Source: Nitrososphaeria archaeon
GTDB lineage: Archaea > Thermoproteota > Nitrososphaeria > Geothermarchaeales > JDFR-13
NCBI GenBank assembly: GCA_027078545.1
Contig: JALWXN010000004.1
Span: 892,133-956,132 of the forward strand
Length of the DNA stretch: 64,000 nt
Reading direction: 5' to 3'
The position numbers and the translations under genes are program-made. How positions within the stretch are numbered: the first letter of the stretch is position 1; every line of letters starts with the position of its first letter. Below are positions 5,767 through 11,950 of the stretch, piece after piece. The notes under the pieces were generated by a model. That model searched no databases. It saw only the letters and a list, made by a program, of their open reading frames with translations, and was not told the DNA's origin.

Positions 5767-6669
5767 ATGGAGATAAGTATAGTAGACGTATCTCCCAGGC
5801 CGGGTATAGAGGGAGATATCTGCCTCTACGCCATAGAGACTGGAGAGGGGCTGATCCTCGTCGAGGCAGGGCCACCCAACGGGTTCCAACGCCTCGAGAA
5901 ATGGCTGTTGGAGAGGGGATACAGCTTCAGCGACATCAAGTACGTCCTACTCACCCATATCCACCTAGACCATGGTGGTGGAGCTGGATACATTGTACAG
6001 AGGGGTGGGAGGCCAGAGATATATGTACATCCACGTGGGGCTCCACATCTTGTAGACCCCTCCAAGCTATGGAGGTCGAGCCTAGAGACGATAGGCGACG
6101 TAGCCAGGGTATATGGAGAGCCCCTACCAGTGCCGGAGGAGCTAGTGAAGATCCCGAGTGATGGGGAGATGGTGGAGCTCCTAGGCCTGGGCTTCGAGTT
6201 CATCTATACACCTGGCCATGCCAAGCACCACATGTCTATCTACCTAGAGGATGAGGACATACTCTTCACGGGCGACTCGGCAGGCCTATACCACGGAGGC
6301 ACGGTGATCCCGACCACCCCGCCTCCCCACAACGTTGAGGAGAGTATTGCCAGTATCAGGAGGATGATGTCCCTAGCCCCCGGGAGGCTGGGATATACAC
6401 ACTTCGGGATAGTTGACGACGCACTGGACTGGCTCGAGAGGTATGAAATAGTCTATAACAAGTGGGTCAACCACGTGGAGAGGGGCTATAGGGAGGGACG
6501 TGGCATAGACGAGATCTACAGGGAGCTGAGACGTGTAGACCTTGGGATAGAGGTCCAAGAGAGGTTCTTCAGGTATAGGGGGTATGGGGAGGAGGAGGTC
6601 CTACTCAGCCTCTACGGGATCTATAGCTACTACGAGTGGCTCGAGACTCGTTCCAGCTCAGGATCTTGA
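5767..6669 (+). CDS. metallo-beta-lactamase fold hydrolase
   Basis: LLTHIHLDHGGGAGY (HxHxDH zinc site), downstream TPGHAKHH and FTGDSAG. Confidence 0.8.
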   Translation: MEISIVDVSPRPGIEGDICLYAIETGEGLILVEAGPPNGFQRLEKWLLERGYSFSDIKYVLLTHIHLDHGGGAGYIVQRGGRPEIYVHPRGAPHLVDPSKLWRSSLETIGDVARVYGEPLPVPEELVKIPSDGEMVELLGLGFEFIYTPGHAKHHMSIYLEDEDILFTGDSAGLYHGGTVIPTTPPPHNVEESIASIRRMMSLAPGRLGYTHFGIVDDALDWLERYEIVYNKWVNHVERGYREGRGIDEIYRELRRVDLGIEVQERFFRYRGYGEEEVLLSLYGIYSYYEWLETRSSSGS

Positions 6670-6970
6670 GGTGGTAGATATAGACCTTCGTATCCCTAGG
6701 TAGCTCACCATAAATATCCCTAAGAATCCCCTGGAGCTCCTCCAACGACTCGAACCCATCTATAACCGCGTCCCACTCATTCAGGGTCTCCAGACTCTTC
6801 TCAACAATATCCTCAACCACCGCCTTACCATAGATCTTACCATTGGTATCAGCTATGTAGACCGTCTCCCCCAGCTCATACTTCTTCTCAAGCCTGATAG
6901 TCGTCCTCTTCCTCCCACTCCTGAGGAGCTCGAGATACTCCGGCCTAAACTTCATCTTCCTATGCCTCAT
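6605..6970 (-). CDS. ASCH domain protein (PUA-like; possible N4-acetylcytidine amidohydrolase-type RNA-binding protein)
   Basis: MKFRPEYLELLRSGRKRTTIRLEKKYELGETVYIA resembles the ASCH/YqfB N-terminus. Start ATG 6970 overlaps the tmcA 3' end by 11 nt; alternative ATG 6955 lies 4 nt after the tmcA stop. The track's longer N-terminal extension is rejected. Confidence 0.6.
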   Translation of the reverse strand: MRHRKMKFRPEYLELLRSGRKRTTIRLEKKYELGETVYIADTNGKIYGKAVVEDIVEKSLETLNEWDAVIDGFESLEELQGILRDIYGELPRDTKVYIYHLKILSWNESRATRSSYRSRRG

Positions 6971-9281
6971 CCCCCTCACCCTTGAGGACGTAGTAAAGCC
7001 TAAGCTTAGCCACAAGCTCCCTAGTCTTGTTAACCACCTCCTCCATATCCAGGTCGAAGTACATGGCAACCTTCTCCCAAGGCCTAGCCTGTAGAACCCT
7101 GTTTATCAATACATACTCCCACAGCCTGGGTATCCGGACCCTCTTATCGGGGCTCCTCATAAAGTGGGTCTTAACCACCTCCCTTATGGCGTCGTAGGCC
7201 CCTCCGAAGGCCATCCCGCCATAGATATACATCTTCAGCCTCTCCCTCTGGGCCCTGCTCAGGCTCGGCTTATAATCCATCTCGAAGGGGTCCATGGAGA
7301 GGAGCTGGTACGCAAGCTTTGGCTCAAGGTTGAAGTGGCACTCGAACAGGGTGGTCATCAAGAGCTTCTTAAACTCCTTCCTAGCCCTCCTGACAACCTC
7401 CTTCGCCCTCCTACTCAGCGGCCTTATAACCACTGTGCTGAACTCCCCTGAGACGGCGTTCCTAACAGGGCTTAGGTATAGGGGGGCGAAGCCGTTCCTC
7501 CACCAGAAGTCTAGGAGCTTATCAGTAGCCCCGAAGCTCGCGCCCACCCAGTCCATACCCATCTCCCTAGCCTCCTCCACAACCTTCTCCAACGCCTTGC
7601 TACCAACACCCTTCCTCATAACGTCTGGATGGGTCGCTATCCTCACTACCCTTATACCTCTCATCTCCGGTATGCCTTCAAGGTGTGGATAGTAGCGGAG
7701 GAGTATCGTGGGTATAACATGTCCACTGGGCGGGTCTCCAGCCAAGGTGCGCATCACGTCCTCCTCGGTCATCGCCCCCTCATAGGCGAGGTGTAGGCTA
7801 TTTATGACATGCCCCCTATACATCATCGCCCGCATGAAGTGGTGCGGAGCATCCATCAGGATCATCAGGTCGTTGGGCCTGTTCCTATAGTGTGCATAGA
7901 TGTAGATGCCGATATACTCCTTGAGGAGGTCACGCTTCTTGAATAGCCACTCCTCGGGATCCGGCTTGACGTATCGGAGTCTAGAGAGGTCTAGGTCGAA
8001 GATCTCCGCCTCACTATATGGATATGGGTCAGCGTCTAGGAAGAAGGTCTTGAAGAGCCAGTCCTCCACAGGGTCTTCAGGGGCGTATCGGATCGGCTCA
8101 TCCATATCCACCTCTATAAGCCTACCCCCGAAGACCTTCCTAACCATTGGTAGGAACCTTACCTGGAACCCCCTACCAGCACCCTCATAGCCGTGGAGGG
8201 TGCTTGAGAAGACCGACTTCTCAAACTTCTCGGCGATATGCTCTAGGATATGGGTGGGTATACCGCTGGCCTCATCCACAACTATGAGGTCCGCCTTCAC
8301 CTTGTAGCTGGTGGGCGGGTTGATATAGGCTATCTTACCCAGCGTACTATTGATCTCCACGATCACCCCGCCCTGCTTCTTAACATTATGCTTCACCCCA
8401 TGCTCCCTGAAGACCATCCTGATGAAGCTGAATATCTCCTTGGTGTTTACCGGGTCTGGAGCCGTGACATAGATCTTCAGCTTATCCTTCTTCGAGGCCT
8501 TCTTCAACATATAACCTGCAACCCCGAGGCCCACGGCGGCAGATTTGCCCCTACCCCTATCAGCCGTCACGACCACGCTTCCACGGGGCATTGAGGAGAG
8601 CTTATCGATAGCCCTGATCACCCTTACCTGGTCCTCGGTGAGGGCCCTCCTATATATCGACTCGTCGAAGGATATGTCGCTAGGTATCTCCGGGGGCCTA
8701 CGTACATAGTCCGGATACCTCACCTCCCTACCCGCCAGGCCACCATCCTCATGGAAGAAGACTCCTGGATGCTCCTCCAGGCTCTCGACGAAGTATCGCT
8801 GGAAGATCGTCTGTACATCCTCCAGGGTGAAGGGGGAGGTGACCATATCCCTGTGGAAGGGTGTCTTCATATTCTTCCACCTCTCCCTCTCAGGGGAGAG
8901 GACTATTATGTAGCCCCCGCCCCTCACAACCTCTATTACGCGGCCTACATCGTTCGGCCTCATATCCCTCCTGAGATCAACTATCAGGGCGTCCCAGGTG
9001 GTGCCGAGTATCCTGTTGAGATCCTTGAACTGGACATACTCAGGCCTCGCCCTCGAGTCGATACCCTTTGATAGTGGCTTCCACATATTGTTCTCAGACT
9101 TGGGCTCCTTACCCGCGAATAGTAGGCTGTAGGACTCCCCCCTCACCCCGTCATACCTATTCACGATGTCTAGGAGGGCCTCGGGGGAGGGCTCCTCGAT
9201 AACAATCATCCTCCTATGGAACTCCCTAAGCGCGTTCCCAAATATCTCCTCCGGCCTATATATCTCAACCTCCCTCTTCAT
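6960..9281 (-). CDS. tmcA: tRNA(Met) cytidine acetyltransferase TmcA (archaeal Nat10/Kre33 homolog)
   Basis: 773 aa; helicase-like Walker A TADRGRGKSAA, DEASGIP, HGYEGAGRGF, C-terminal GNAT acetyltransferase region. Confidence 0.85.
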   Translation of the reverse strand: MKREVEIYRPEEIFGNALREFHRRMIVIEEPSPEALLDIVNRYDGVRGESYSLLFAGKEPKSENNMWKPLSKGIDSRARPEYVQFKDLNRILGTTWDALIVDLRRDMRPNDVGRVIEVVRGGGYIIVLSPERERWKNMKTPFHRDMVTSPFTLEDVQTIFQRYFVESLEEHPGVFFHEDGGLAGREVRYPDYVRRPPEIPSDISFDESIYRRALTEDQVRVIRAIDKLSSMPRGSVVVTADRGRGKSAAVGLGVAGYMLKKASKKDKLKIYVTAPDPVNTKEIFSFIRMVFREHGVKHNVKKQGGVIVEINSTLGKIAYINPPTSYKVKADLIVVDEASGIPTHILEHIAEKFEKSVFSSTLHGYEGAGRGFQVRFLPMVRKVFGGRLIEVDMDEPIRYAPEDPVEDWLFKTFFLDADPYPYSEAEIFDLDLSRLRYVKPDPEEWLFKKRDLLKEYIGIYIYAHYRNRPNDLMILMDAPHHFMRAMMYRGHVINSLHLAYEGAMTEEDVMRTLAGDPPSGHVIPTILLRYYPHLEGIPEMRGIRVVRIATHPDVMRKGVGSKALEKVVEEAREMGMDWVGASFGATDKLLDFWWRNGFAPLYLSPVRNAVSGEFSTVVIRPLSRRAKEVVRRARKEFKKLLMTTLFECHFNLEPKLAYQLLSMDPFEMDYKPSLSRAQRERLKMYIYGGMAFGGAYDAIREVVKTHFMRSPDKRVRIPRLWEYVLINRVLQARPWEKVAMYFDLDMEEVVNKTRELVAKLRLYYVLKGEGDEA

Positions 9282-9313
9282 CTCCGCCCAATATAGGATA
9301 ATAGCTATGTGTA

Positions 9314-10456
9314 TTAAGCCTCGGCCACGGCTATCCTGGTTATCAGCTTCCCATGGAGGACCTGTAGATTCTCGAGAACCCTATATCCCGACGCCTCCAA
9401 CGCATCCCTTAGGAGGCGGTACTCACTTGTTATGGCGACTATCCTCCTGATACCGAGGCTCGAGAGCTCGTCAACCACATCTCTATATAGATCCTCCAGG
9501 ACCTTGCGCCGAGTCATCCTGATCCCATAGGGAGGGTTGAAGACGGCCACGCCACTCTCGAGGCTGGGTAGGTGGCTAGTCAGGTCACGGGCATCTACAC
9601 ACATGAACCTTATAGCCCTATCCACACCCGCCGACTCGGCGTTTCTCTCGGCGCCCGACATGTATCTGCAGGAGATATCGTTGTAGATTATCTCTGGCCC
9701 CTCCCCCGGTGGGAGCCTAGCGTTATAAGCCTCCTCACGGGCCTCTAGATATGTCTCCAATGGGTAGTATGGGATCTTAGTTATCATGTGGTTAGGCCTA
9801 TAGAGGCCCGGTGCATACCTATATCTATACAGTGCCGCCTCAATAGGAATGGTACCCCCACCGGCCATCGGGTCTATGAAGGGCTCATCCCAGAACCCGC
9901 TGAGCAGAACCATAGCAGCTGCCAGACTCGTCTTTATAGCGGCTGGGTGGTTCCACACCCTATACCCCCTTATGTGGAGGCTCTCACCCACCAGGTTAAC
10001 CCCAAATGTATACCTGTCATCAACGATCCTGAGGATATACTCCCTATCGGGGCTGGTCAGATCTACACTAACCTTATACCCAGCCCTCTCCAACGCCCTA
10101 TAGACAGCCGCCCCCACAACCCTATTGGCATCCAGGCTTGTGAAGCCGTGGCTCCCATACCTACTACTCCTGAGGGCGAAGGAGCCATCCCCACCGAAGA
10201 GCCTCAGGTCAAGAGACTCGACACGCCTAGCAATATCCTCCAGACTATTGAACACACCCTCGTCGAGTACATGTATCACCTTGTAGATAGTCCTACCCCA
10301 AAGGATCAGCCTAGGGACGGCCTCCACACCGAGCCTAACCCTAAGCGTATTCTCAGCCTGTATAGGCATAACACCAGTGATATCCCTAACCTCCTCAGCA
10401 GCCACCCTGGCTATCCCCTTCGTAATAGTGATTAGTATATCGGCATCGCCCGGCAA
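9314..10456 (-). CDS. THUMP-domain tRNA (guanine-N2)-methyltransferase (Trm14/Trm-G10 type)
   Basis: N-terminal THUMP-like region, SAM-binding DPMAGGGTIPIEAA, catalytic NPPYG motif; TTG start in track. Confidence 0.75.
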   Translation of the reverse strand: MPGDADILITITKGIARVAAEEVRDITGVMPIQAENTLRVRLGVEAVPRLILWGRTIYKVIHVLDEGVFNSLEDIARRVESLDLRLFGGDGSFALRSSRYGSHGFTSLDANRVVGAAVYRALERAGYKVSVDLTSPDREYILRIVDDRYTFGVNLVGESLHIRGYRVWNHPAAIKTSLAAAMVLLSGFWDEPFIDPMAGGGTIPIEAALYRYRYAPGLYRPNHMITKIPYYPLETYLEAREEAYNARLPPGEGPEIIYNDISCRYMSGAERNAESAGVDRAIRFMCVDARDLTSHLPSLESGVAVFNPPYGIRMTRRKVLEDLYRDVVDELSSLGIRRIVAITSEYRLLRDALEASGYRVLENLQVLHGKLITRIAVAEA

Positions 10457-10491: not shown

Positions 10492-11328
10492 ATGGAGCTG
10501 GATAGGATTTATAGCGAGGCCAATCAAGATCCAGTAGGTAGTCTTGAATGGGTCCTTGAGAAGTGGATAGATAATTCTAGGGAGCTCCCAGGTCGTAGGG
10601 GTGGGGTGGTCTACCTCGAGGTTGATAGATGTCTAGTCATTGGCGATATACATGGGGACCTAGATACGCTCCATAGACTCCTCACAAAGACTTGGAGGGG
10701 CGAGCCACTACTCTTCCTGGGTGACTATATTGATAGGGGGTTCCAGCAGCTGGAGACCCTGAAGTATATAGCCCTCCTAATGGATGATGCAGATGTGATT
10801 ACCCTTAGGGGTAACCATGAGCCGCCTAGATGGCTACCGGTATATCCCCATGACTTCCCCCATATCCTCAGGACGCAGGGGGTGCACCACCTATACGATC
10901 TTGCCCAGGAGATGTTCGACAGCCTACCTATAGCAGCTGTGCTTAACGGTGAGGCCCTAGCTATACATGGTGGGATACCGGTCAGCATATCGAGGGTGGA
11001 GGAGCTTGAGAGGCCTAGGAGGGAGGTCTTGGCAGAAGCATTGTGGAACGACCCCTTCGAGGGCGTTGGTATAAAGCCTAGCCCAAGGGGTGTGGGCCAC
11101 CTCTATGGGATCGACGTGACGAGGAGGTTCCTAGGTAATAACGGGCTTAGATACCACCTCAGGGGGCATGAGGCGGTTGACGGCTATAAGGTCTTCCATG
11201 AGGGGATGGGGATAACCCTATTCTCACGGCTAGGCATACCATACGGAAACTCTAGGGCCGCGATATACATCTACGAGCCTGGCGGTAACCATCTCGACCC
11301 GGCAAGATTCATATACGTATTTAGATGA
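10492..11328 (+). CDS. serine/threonine protein phosphatase, PPP family (calcineurin-like metallophosphoesterase)
   Basis: GDIHGD, GDYIDRG, RGNHE motifs. Confidence 0.8.
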   Translation: MELDRIYSEANQDPVGSLEWVLEKWIDNSRELPGRRGGVVYLEVDRCLVIGDIHGDLDTLHRLLTKTWRGEPLLFLGDYIDRGFQQLETLKYIALLMDDADVITLRGNHEPPRWLPVYPHDFPHILRTQGVHHLYDLAQEMFDSLPIAAVLNGEALAIHGGIPVSISRVEELERPRREVLAEALWNDPFEGVGIKPSPRGVGHLYGIDVTRRFLGNNGLRYHLRGHEAVDGYKVFHEGMGITLFSRLGIPYGNSRAAIYIYEPGGNHLDPARFIYVFR

Positions 11329-11877
11329 TCAGCACCGGGACAACTGTCTAGACGCCTCCTCCAGGAACATCCTATAGATATCATCGGTGTATAGGACGAA
11401 GATCACCTTCTTAACACTCCCAGGATCAGTGGAGAAGTCCTTCACAGCCCTTATCATCCCCCTTGCAGAGACCTCGGGCTCCACCCTATAGACCCCGGTA
11501 GATATGGCTGGGAAGGCTATAGACTCTAGTCCCTCAGACTTCGCTAGGAGAAGGCTATTCCTAACTGCACGATATATCTTACTCTCCTCGTCACCCTCCC
11601 CCTTGATCGGGCCAACCGTATGTATCACCCACTTGGCCTTTAGCCTACCAGCCGTGGTCTTGACCGCGTCACCCACCTCTAGGGGGCCACGCTCCCTGAT
11701 AATCCTGTCCGACTCCTCCTGTATAACATATCCACCCCTCCTCACTATGGCTCCAGCCACACCGCCGCCATGCTGGAGATACTTGTTAGCCGCGTTGACG
11801 ATAGCATCGGCCTCCACCTCTGTGATGTCCCCCTTGATGAATATGATCTCAAGCCCCCCACACCTGAACCTCTCCAT
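11329..11877 (-). CDS. macro domain protein (ADP-ribose binding / O-acetyl-ADP-ribose deacetylase-like)
   Basis: GDITEVEADAIVNAAN...GGGVAGAI and ISTGVY motifs; internal ATG 11877 preferred (TATA-like box at about 11909-11925). Confidence 0.8.
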   Translation of the reverse strand: MERFRCGGLEIIFIKGDITEVEADAIVNAANKYLQHGGGVAGAIVRRGGYVIQEESDRIIRERGPLEVGDAVKTTAGRLKAKWVIHTVGPIKGEGDEESKIYRAVRNSLLLAKSEGLESIAFPAISTGVYRVEPEVSARGMIRAVKDFSTDPGSVKKVIFVLYTDDIYRMFLEEASRQLSRC

Positions 11878-11950
11878 AGCCAGCACCCCGCGACAGTAAT
11901 ACCATCCCCTTAAATCCGTTAAAACGGGATTCAATGGTGGTGCCTAGGAG

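What the first reader, a model, noticed from the sequence alone, without database searches (positions are those of the whole stretch)
6605..9281. ASCH-domain gene overlapping the 3' end of tmcA: ac4C writer paired with a candidate eraser
TmcA installs N4-acetylcytidine on tRNA. The gene immediately downstream (start overlapping or 4 nt after the tmcA stop) encodes an ASCH domain, the fold of E. coli YqfB, which is an N4-acetylcytidine amidohydrolase. A co-transcribed writer/eraser pair for an RNA modification would be notable. The next gene upstream on the same strand is a THUMP tRNA methyltransferase, making this a small tRNA-modification cluster.
Basis: partly seen in the sequence, partly recalled or inferred. 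Interest (0 to 1): 0.6.

Follow-up and report, generated by a model that had tools for sequence, protein, structure and literature searches.

The report
YqfB-type ac4C deacetylase gene coupled to tmcA
A small gene whose start overlaps the end of the RNA cytidine acetyltransferase gene tmcA encodes a close structural relative of the E. coli N4-acetylcytidine deacetylase YqfB, and this gene pair is conserved across many archaeal lineages, but two 2026 preprints already describe the pairing and the enzyme activity.

Summary
On the minus strand lie a Trm14-like THUMP methyltransferase (10456-9314), tmcA (9281-6960) and a 121-aa ASCH gene (6970-6605). The ASCH start overlaps the tmcA stop by 11 nt.

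The ASCH protein belongs to the YqfB (GKTR) clade. It carries G19, K21, T24 and R26 at the same residue numbers as YqfB, and D71 aligns with YqfB E74. YqfB is the best solved-structure match both by fold (E 8e-8) and by profile (E 8e-11).

The linkage is real and old:
- 18 of 80 archaeal tmcA loci carry this ASCH subfamily downstream, 17 of them abutting or overlapping the tmcA stop.
- They span Geothermarchaeota, Bathyarchaeia, Nezhaarchaeales, Methanomethylicota and Alkanophaga.
- Four more subfamily members (including Korarchaeota MAGs) looked up from the ASCH side are also tmcA-linked.
- No other neighbour is conserved, so the THUMP gene is a local neighbour only.

It is not new. An August 2026 preprint states that YqfB-clade ASCH genes form a conserved operon with TmcA. 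A February 2026 preprint shows that ASCH proteins, archaeal ones included, deacetylate tRNA. Whether this protein erases ac4C in RNA or salvages free ac4C remains open.

The parts
6960..9281 (-). tmcA: RNA cytidine N4-acetyltransferase (TmcA/NAT10 family), 773 aa
   Evidence: Pfam TmcA_N, NAT10_TcmA_helicase and GNAT_acetyltr_2. The GRGKS and HGYEGAGRG motifs are invariant in an alignment of 17 archaeal TmcA. It is 96% identical to the TmcA of a Ca. Geothermarchaeota MAG.
6605..6970 (-). ASCH-domain gene, 121 aa, YqfB (GKTR) clade; candidate N4-acetylcytidine amidohydrolase
   Evidence: PF04266 E 1.8e-14. AF2 model pLDDT 84.8. The best PDB fold match is YqfB 9kyh/9kyf. The subfamily profile hits YqfB at E 8e-11.
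6960..6970 (-). 11-nt overlap of the ASCH start codon region with the tmcA stop codon, in a different frame; implies translational coupling
   Evidence: Sequence. Overlaps of 4-59 nt occur at the inferred starts in 15 of 17 other linked loci scored; L014 and L017 have gaps and L008 had no start assigned. Called genes also overlap.
6971..6980 (-). Purine-rich Shine-Dalgarno-like GGTGAGGGGG directly 5' of the ASCH ATG, inside the tmcA coding sequence
   Evidence: Read directly from the sequence. Its function is inferred.
6893..6916 (-). ASCH octapeptide GRKRTTIR (G19, K21, T24, R26), the YqfB-type catalytic motif
   Evidence: Translation. Invariant in 19 tmcA-linked ASCH. Aligned to YqfB GRKTITIR.
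6755..6760 (-). D71-G72; D71 aligns with the proposed general acid E74 of YqfB
   Evidence: Translation. Alignments. Asp in 17 of 19 linked ASCH and in 136 of 150 nearest representatives.
6608..6643 (-). Disordered basic C-terminal tail (residues 110-121, SRATRSSYRSRRG), overlapping the 3' end of the convergent MBL-fold gene
   Evidence: pLDDT below 50 for residues 110-121. Lys/Arg-rich tails recur in several homologues. Overlap with ORF 5767-6669(+).
9314..10456 (-). Trm14-like THUMP/UPF0020 RNA methyltransferase, 32 nt upstream of tmcA; a lineage-specific neighbour and not part of the conserved module
   Evidence: Pfam and NCBIfam. Present beside tmcA only in the window's own family.

Best explanation
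The 121-aa protein is a YqfB-clade ASCH amidohydrolase that hydrolyses the N4-acetyl group of N4-acetylcytidine made by TmcA. It is produced from the same transcript as TmcA by coupled translation.

Proposed mechanism, by homology to YqfB: K21 and T24 activate a water molecule that attacks the amide, R26 stabilises the oxyanion, and D71 acts as the acid.

Two features suggest action at the RNA or nucleotide level close to TmcA. This subfamily is basic, with Lys/Arg-rich termini, and its start/stop overlap with tmcA is kept over long evolutionary distances. I therefore think it most likely removes acetyl groups from RNA-embedded or RNA-fragment ac4C, as an eraser or proofreader that sets the steady-state level and site selectivity of acetylation. 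It is probably also able to clear free ac4C.

Shown here: domain, fold, catalytic-residue conservation, the conserved operon, and co-inheritance of the two genes. Inferred: the enzyme activity, the substrate form, and any physical complex with TmcA.
For: Identity and clade:
- ASCH domain.
- The only NCBIfam match is the YqfB model.
- Foldseek's top three PDB hits are YqfB chains (apo 9kyf and the ac4C complex 9kyh; E about 1e-7, TM 0.85-0.87 normalised to the target, rmsd about 2 A).
- The profile of 19 linked ASCH hits YqfB at 8e-11, against 1.5e-3 for the next ASCH structure.
- G19, K21, T24, R26 and Y87 are invariant and D71 nearly so.
- 135 of the 150 nearest representatives carry GKTR.

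Linkage:
- 18 of 80 archaeal tmcA loci carry this ASCH downstream on the same strand, 17 of them abutting.
- Only tmcA and ASCH are shared between those loci.
- Four more ASCH homologues, from MAGs labelled Korarchaeota and Methanomicrobia and two unnamed sources, are all tmcA-linked with unrelated flanks.
- TmcA and ASCH distances co-vary (r = 0.82, Mantel p <= 2e-4).

RNA-level hint:
- pI is 7.9-11.3 in linked ASCH against 4.7 in YqfB.
- Basic N- and C-terminal tails are common.

Literature:
- ASCH proteins, including archaeal GKTR ones, remove ac4C from tRNA in vitro and in E. coli (bioRxiv 10.64898/2026.02.27.708502).
- A YqfB-clade/TmcA operon is reported in bioRxiv 10.64898/2026.08.01.741249.
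Against: - No biochemistry exists for this protein or for any tmcA-linked member.
- It scores 21.7 bits against the YqfB equivalog cut-off of 93 and shares only about 24% identity with YqfB.
- The acid residue is Asp rather than Glu, and it is Ala in one linked homologue.
- E. coli delta-yqfB shows no change in RNA ac4C (Meng et al. 2025, as cited).
- The EOLA1 study argues that ASCH deacetylases act on free ac4C and not on intact RNA.
- Making a writer and an eraser of the same RNA sites together would be a futile cycle costing ATP and acetyl-CoA.
- The core of the window protein (residues 1-104) has a pI of only 6.7.
- A high pI is common in small archaeal proteins.
Confidence: 0.45

Rival explanations
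1. Salvage only. The protein is an ac4C amidohydrolase that acts on free ac4C nucleoside or nucleotide released by turnover of acetylated RNA. It regenerates cytidine so that pyrimidine salvage can proceed. It sits with tmcA because any cell that makes ac4C needs to recycle it. It does not touch intact RNA.
For: - It has the same catalytic evidence as the best explanation.
- YqfB was characterised on the free nucleoside, and E. coli delta-yqfB leaves RNA ac4C unchanged.
- The EOLA1 preprint shows free-ac4C salvage and reads the TmcA/YqfB-clade operon as the enzyme operating on ac4C generated by the acetyltransferase.
- This model avoids a futile cycle when the two proteins are made together.
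Against: - A metabolic salvage step would not need start/stop overlap with the writer to be kept across many lineages.
- E. coli yqfB is not near tmcA.
- The linked subfamily is basic with Lys/Arg-rich tails, unlike acidic YqfB.
- No salvage gene such as a cytidine deaminase is conserved beside the pair.
- YqfB-type and archaeal GKTR ASCH proteins do deacetylate tRNA in vitro.
Confidence: 0.33
2. Non-catalytic partner. The ASCH domain serves as an RNA- or ac4C-binding subunit (a reader or adaptor) that helps TmcA find or release substrates, as other PUA-like domains bind modified bases, with no hydrolysis taking place.
For: - The tight translational coupling and co-evolution with TmcA fit a protein complex.
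- The protein is basic.
- Some ASCH proteins, such as TRIP4, bind nucleic acid.
Against: The full YqfB catalytic set (K21, T24, R26 and an acidic residue at 71) is invariant or nearly so in the linked subfamily, which a pure binder would not need. All 19 ASCH proteins tested in the February 2026 preprint were catalytically active on tRNA ac4C.
Confidence: 0.1
3. Different substrate. The enzyme hydrolyses another N4-acyl or related modified cytosine, or another small amide, and the link to tmcA reflects a shared regulon rather than a shared molecule.
For: - YqfB accepts various N4-acylcytosine derivatives.
- The score is below the equivalog cut-off.
- Relatives are fused to carbamoyltransferases, which hints at other N4 groups within the clade.
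Against: The only gene conserved beside it is the ac4C writer. The substrate-facing motif is identical in type to that of YqfB.
Confidence: 0.07

Closest known systems
E. coli YqfB, N4-acetylcytidine amidohydrolase (PDB 9KYF/9KYH, 1TE7)
   Same: - Single ASCH domain of about 100-120 aa.
- GxKxxTxR octapeptide with K21, T24 and R26 at identical residue numbers.
- Conserved Tyr (Y87 here, Y89 in YqfB) and an acidic residue at the E74 position.
- Best structural and profile match.
   Different: - About 24% identity and below the NCBIfam equivalog cut-off.
- Asp instead of Glu at the acid position.
- Basic (pI 9.3; the subfamily ranges 7.9-11.3) against acidic YqfB (4.7).
- Basic N-terminus and a disordered basic tail.
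- Encoded overlapping tmcA, whereas E. coli yqfB lies between trhA and bglA, not next to tmcA.
The conserved TmcA/Nat10 plus YqfB-clade ASCH operon noted by Relier et al. (bioRxiv 10.64898/2026.08.01.741249)
   Same: This is exactly that arrangement: a YqfB-clade ASCH gene on the same strand next to a TmcA orthologue.
   Different: The preprint mentions it in one sentence and a supplementary figure for 'several prokaryotes'. This analysis adds the archaeal distribution, the retained start/stop overlap, the co-inheritance and the basic character. No experiment on a linked pair is reported there.
Archaeal GKTR ASCH proteins tested as tRNA ac4C deacetylases (Afu2ASCH, Afu3ASCH, Pku2ASCH, Pku4ASCH; bioRxiv 10.64898/2026.02.27.708502)
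   Same: They are archaeal, carry the threonine-type octapeptide and have a high pI. They have demonstrated ac4C removal from tRNA and from the nucleoside.
   Different: Afu3, Pku2 and Pku4 carry a C-terminal HTH domain that binds tRNA. The window protein has only a short basic tail. That paper does not discuss a tmcA linkage. I could not test whether any of the tested proteins belongs to the tmcA-linked subfamily.
Human EOLA1 (free-ac4C salvage deacetylase)
   Same: An ASCH-fold ac4C deacetylase.
   Different: It belongs to the TRIP4-like (GKER) clade. It is only a weak structural match here (5y7d, E 2.6e-3).

Membership tests
ASCH superfamily (Pfam PF04266) | Profile match above the gathering threshold | tested here: met
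   54.7 bits against a cut-off of 21.2, E 1.8e-14, profile positions 1-100 of 103.
ASCH superfamily (Pfam PF04266) | PUA-like beta-barrel with helices | tested here: met
   AF2 model with pLDDT 84.8. The 17 Foldseek PDB hits at E <= 1e-3 are chains of seven ASCH-fold proteins.
ASCH superfamily (Pfam PF04266) | Octapeptide GxKxx[E/T/S]xR | tested here: met
   GRKRTTIR at residues 19-26.
YqfB-type ac4C amidohydrolase (GKTR clade) | Catalytic Lys21, Thr24 and Arg26 | tested here: met
   They sit at the same positions in the MAFFT and HMMER alignments to YqfB and are invariant in 19 linked homologues.
YqfB-type ac4C amidohydrolase (GKTR clade) | Acidic residue equivalent to Glu74 | tested here: met
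   D71 aligns with E74. It is Asp rather than Glu. Position 71 is Asp in 136 and Glu in 13 of the 150 nearest representatives.
YqfB-type ac4C amidohydrolase (GKTR clade) | Closer to YqfB than to other ASCH clades | tested here: met
   The profile hits YqfB at E 8e-11 against 1.5e-3 for the next ASCH structure. YqfB is the Foldseek top hit. NF003443 is the only NCBIfam family hit for the window protein and the only one shared across the subfamily, by 13 of 19 members.
YqfB-type ac4C amidohydrolase (GKTR clade) | NCBIfam equivalog score (NF003443, 93 bits) | tested here: not met
   21.7 bits. It is therefore a clade relative and not an orthologue by NCBI's criterion.
YqfB-type ac4C amidohydrolase (GKTR clade) | Hydrolysis of N4-acetylcytidine | not testable with these tools
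   Requires an enzyme assay.
TmcA/NAT10 RNA cytidine acetyltransferase | TmcA_N, helicase and GNAT domain architecture with the Walker A motif | tested here: met
   GRGKS and HGYEGAGRG are invariant.
Conserved tmcA-ASCH operon | YqfB-clade ASCH directly next to tmcA on the same strand in several lineages | tested here: met
   18 of 80 tmcA loci, 4 of 4 further ASCH homologues, and the close relatives.
Conserved tmcA-ASCH operon | Co-transcription | not testable with these tools
   Inferred only from the 11-nt overlap. No transcript data are available.
Trm14 (THUMP tRNA m2G6 methyltransferase) | THUMP plus UPF0020 methyltransferase domains; equivalog score | tested here: inconclusive
   The domains are present. 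NF040721 scores 244.7 bits against a cut-off of 280.

The most novel reading that the evidence does not exclude
TmcA and its overlapping ASCH partner form a physical writer-eraser unit on RNA. The deacetylase continuously proofreads or trims TmcA's acetylation, so that the steady-state ac4C pattern on archaeal tRNA and rRNA is set by the balance of two co-made enzymes, for example as a function of temperature. On this reading the lineages that lack the partner (Thermococcales, Desulfurococcales, Sulfolobales) run an unopposed writer.
Probability: 0.25. Interest if true: 0.65.

Novelty: new member of a known kind. Interest (0 to 1): 0.35.

Why it matters
ac4C is a conserved RNA modification. 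In hyperthermophilic archaea it becomes more abundant at higher growth temperature. Whether it is actively removed is a live question, with two 2026 preprints disagreeing on RNA erasure versus free-nucleoside salvage.

A deacetylase gene locked to the writer gene by start/stop overlap across much of the Thermoproteota is the natural system in which to settle that question. It gives a defined protein pair to express together and to assay on RNA and on nucleosides.

The finding itself does not open a new idea. It adds a well-delimited archaeal subfamily and its distribution to an association already on record.

Tried and rejected
- A single-sequence PDB search did not find YqfB; the best hit was PH0355 at E 0.18. 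Only the subfamily profile and the fold search did.
I used the search for homologous proteins plus look-up of encoding contigs instead.
- The cluster look-up of the nearest representatives gave almost no organism names.
- A 'tRNA-modification cluster' that includes the THUMP gene is rejected as a conserved unit. Trm14, Macro, the MBL-fold gene, DUF4147 and the TPP enzyme are found beside tmcA only in the window's own family and not even in Scotarchaeum JdFR-13.
- I looked for a replacement gene downstream of tmcA in ASCH-less loci. The downstream genes are unrelated: PHO4 transporter, thioredoxin, NYN, MFS and PEP synthase.
- The more distant ASCH P0296 (E 2e-8) lies next to an M23 peptidase-like gene and not tmcA, so the linkage ends at the subfamily boundary.
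- A read-through fusion of TmcA and ASCH is rejected because the two genes are in different frames (coordinates).
- The sigma-70 and terminator scans gave counts at chance level and do not apply to archaeal promoters.
Full report
**What is in the window**

On the minus strand, the ORF listing gives three consecutive genes.
- A 380-aa ORF at 10456-9314.
- A 773-aa ORF at 9281-6960.
- A small ORF that ends at 6605.

Pfam assigns these as follows.
- The 773-aa protein has TmcA_N, the NAT10/TmcA helicase domain and GNAT_acetyltr_2.
- The 380-aa protein has THUMP plus the UPF0020 methyltransferase domain.
- The small protein has a full-length ASCH domain (E 1.8e-14).

NCBIfam places the methyltransferase nearest to archaeal Trm14, just below its cut-off.

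The small gene starts at ATG 6970.
- All six close homologues begin MR[HYF]RK.
- Three of them have Leu where the window has its second Met.
- The start therefore overlaps the tmcA stop codon (6962-6960) by 11 nt, in another frame.
- A GGTGAGGGGG stretch lies just 5' of the ATG.

The 3' end of the ASCH gene overlaps a convergent MBL-fold hydrolase gene (5767-6669) by 65 nt. The overlapped codons encode a basic tail that the structure model leaves disordered.

The window comes from a Ca. Geothermarchaeota genome. A MAG contig, WAKB01000001.1, carries a TmcA that is 96% identical.

**What kind of ASCH it is**

- The only NCBIfam family that the small protein touches is the YqfB N4-acetylcytidine amidohydrolase model. 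The score is weak: 21.7 bits against a cut-off of 93.
- I took E. coli YqfB from the MG1655 record and aligned it with the window protein and its tmcA-linked relatives.
  - The octapeptide GRKRTTIR lines up with YqfB GRKTITIR.
  - G19, K21, T24 and R26 have the same residue numbers in both proteins.
  - D71 lines up with YqfB E74 (translations).
- In 19 tmcA-linked sequences, G19, K21, T24, R26, G72, L79, L83 and Y87 are invariant, and D71 is present in 17.
- A profile of these 19 finds YqfB in the PDB at E 8e-11. The next ASCH structure, P. furiosus PF0469, scores 1.5e-3.
- Thirteen of the 19 hit the YqfB NCBIfam model individually.
- An AlphaFold2 model (pLDDT 84.8) has YqfB as its three best Foldseek matches in the PDB. 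One is the ac4C complex 9KYH. The values are E about 1e-7, TM 0.85-0.87 normalised to YqfB, and rmsd about 2 A. ZmASCH, PH0355, TTHA0113, EOLA1 and TRIP4 rank lower.
- Among the 150 nearest 50%-identity representatives in 1.8 billion proteins, 135 carry G-K-T-R, and nearly all carry K, T and R. Position 71 is Asp in 136 and Glu in 13.

The protein is therefore a member of the threonine-type, YqfB-like clade of ASCH domains. It is not an orthologue by NCBI's score criterion.

The published roles of these residues are summarised in the February 2026 preprint. Lys21, Thr24 and Glu74 were proposed as the catalytic triad, and Arg26 as the oxyanion hole. The later crystal structure assigns Thr24 to activating the water molecule.

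**Is the linkage to tmcA conserved?**

Close relatives (62-93% identical ASCH) keep the whole neighbourhood, which says little.

I then scanned one genome per GTDB species with an alignment of 17 archaeal TmcA proteins and kept the 80 best loci. Their six-frame ORFs were searched with an HMM of the ASCH subfamily and with a broader HMM built from 150 representatives plus YqfB.
- Eighteen loci have this ASCH downstream of tmcA on the same strand.
- In 17 of them it abuts tmcA, mostly overlapping the stop codon by 4-59 nt. One Undinarchaeota locus has it 2.2 kb away.
- The linked loci come from Geothermarchaeota, Ca. Scotarchaeum JdFR-13, seven Bathyarchaeia, two Nezhaarchaeales, Methanomethylicota, Ca. 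Alkanophaga and unclassified Thermoproteota.
- None of the loci from Thermococcales, Desulfurococcales, Acidilobaceae, Sulfolobales, Thermofilaceae or Thermoproteaceae has it.
- In the ASCH-less loci sampled, the gene after tmcA is unrelated in each case.

Several further checks point the same way.
- Clustering all flanking ORFs of the 18 linked loci shows that tmcA and ASCH are the only real families shared widely. The other clusters are antisense shadows of tmcA, or genes shared by three related genomes.
- None of the window's other neighbours is found beside tmcA outside its own family.
- In a neighbour-joining tree of the 80 TmcA proteins, the linked loci fall into one large clade with a few losses. 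The arrangement is therefore old and mostly inherited vertically.
- TmcA and ASCH pairwise distances correlate (r = 0.82, Mantel p <= 2e-4).
- From the ASCH side, four further subfamily members all sit overlapping the end of tmcA, with unrelated flanks. Two are from MAGs labelled Korarchaeota and Methanomicrobia, and two are unnamed.
- A more distant ASCH (E 2e-8) is not linked.

The count of independent origins is small. What matters is that the pair, and its overlap, persisted while everything around it changed.

**How it most likely works**

The conserved catalytic set makes a hydrolase far more likely than a mere binding domain. The only conserved neighbour being the ac4C writer makes ac4C the likely substrate.

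Two published views exist on what ASCH deacetylases act on.
- Statkeviciute et al. show that 19 ASCH proteins remove ac4C from tRNA in vitro, and mostly also in E. coli. The set includes archaeal threonine-type proteins from A. fulgidus and P. kukulkanii.
- Relier et al. show that human EOLA1 clears free ac4C for nucleotide salvage and leaves RNA ac4C unchanged.
- E. coli delta-yqfB has unchanged RNA ac4C (Meng et al. 2025, cited).

For this subfamily I lean towards action on RNA or RNA fragments, possibly in complex with TmcA.
- The overlap with tmcA is retained over great distances, which is more typical of partners needed in fixed ratio than of a salvage step.
- The proteins are basic (pI 7.9-11.3, against 4.7 for YqfB). 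They have a basic N-terminus and often Lys/Arg-rich tails.
- No salvage gene accompanies the pair.
- 33 of the 150 nearest representatives are 171-215 aa with an HTH-like C-terminal extension. This is the architecture that the February preprint shows to bind tRNA tightly. That these extensions are the same domain is my inference.

Against this reading:
- Making a writer and an eraser together is wasteful.
- The window protein's core is near neutral (pI 6.7).
- Nothing here measures activity.

I put the RNA-level reading at 0.45, salvage only at 0.33, a non-catalytic partner at 0.10 and a different substrate at 0.07.

**Comparison with what is known, and novelty**

The idea is already on record. 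Relier et al. [quoted passage not shown] The deacetylase activity of ASCH proteins on tRNA was reported in February 2026.

What this analysis adds:
- A delimited archaeal subfamily.
- Its distribution: present across Geothermarchaeota, Bathyarchaeia, Nezhaarchaeales, Methanomethylicota, Korarchaeota and Alkanophaga, and absent beside tmcA in the classical hyperthermophile orders.
- The retained start/stop overlap and the co-inheritance with TmcA.
- The contrast in charge with YqfB.

The THUMP methyltransferase upstream is real but is only a local neighbour. The window gene is a new member of a known kind.

**Verdict**

The finding is correct but is anticipated by recent literature. It has moderate value as a test system for the eraser-versus-salvage question.

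Noticed in passing
window 6605-6669: The 3' ends of the ASCH gene (minus strand) and a convergent MBL-fold hydrolase gene (5767-6669, plus strand) overlap by 65 nt. In relatives the overlap is 31 nt. The overlapped ASCH codons encode a disordered basic tail.
   Followed up: partly
window 11329-11934 (-) and 10492-11328 (+): A Macro-domain gene lies upstream. In relatives at about 65% identity, Macro, THUMP methyltransferase, TmcA and ASCH are all on one strand (L001, L003). In the window a metallophosphoesterase gene on the other strand lies between Macro and the THUMP gene. Neither gene is conserved beside tmcA elsewhere.
   Followed up: partly
window 9282-9313: The 32-nt gap between the Trm14-like gene and tmcA holds an AT-rich stretch (ctattatcctatatt) and GGCGGAG just before the ATG. 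Whether tmcA and the ASCH gene have their own promoter or are read through from the THUMP gene is undetermined.
   Followed up: no
proteins P0230, P0177, P0226 (representatives): GKTR-clade ASCH domains are fused to the C-terminus of NodU/CmcH-type carbamoyltransferases (P0230, P0177) and to a LigD 3'-phosphoesterase domain (P0226). The first fusion is another 'writer plus ASCH' architecture and could point to N4-carbamoyl or similar groups as substrates.
   Followed up: no
L088 and L089, 6351-7118 (-): In a Methanomicrobia-labelled MAG a SIR2-family deacetylase gene lies about 2 kb beyond the tmcA-ASCH pair, after an intein-containing RFC gene. This was seen in one lineage only. It is curious because a sirtuin, SIRT7, has been proposed as an rRNA ac4C eraser.
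   Followed up: no
representatives P0129, P0133, P0139, P0142, P0145, P0146 and others: 33 of the 150 nearest representatives are 171-215 aa, with an ASCH domain followed by a C-terminal segment of about 85 aa that looks like an HTH. [quoted passage not shown] Pfam finds nothing in that segment for the two scanned, P0129 and P0133.
   Followed up: partly
L011, L083: Within the otherwise ASCH-linked TmcA clade, Nitrososphaeria and Wolframiiraptor loci have a PHO4 phosphate transporter gene directly after tmcA in place of the ASCH gene. This looks like a shared loss or replacement.
   Followed up: partly
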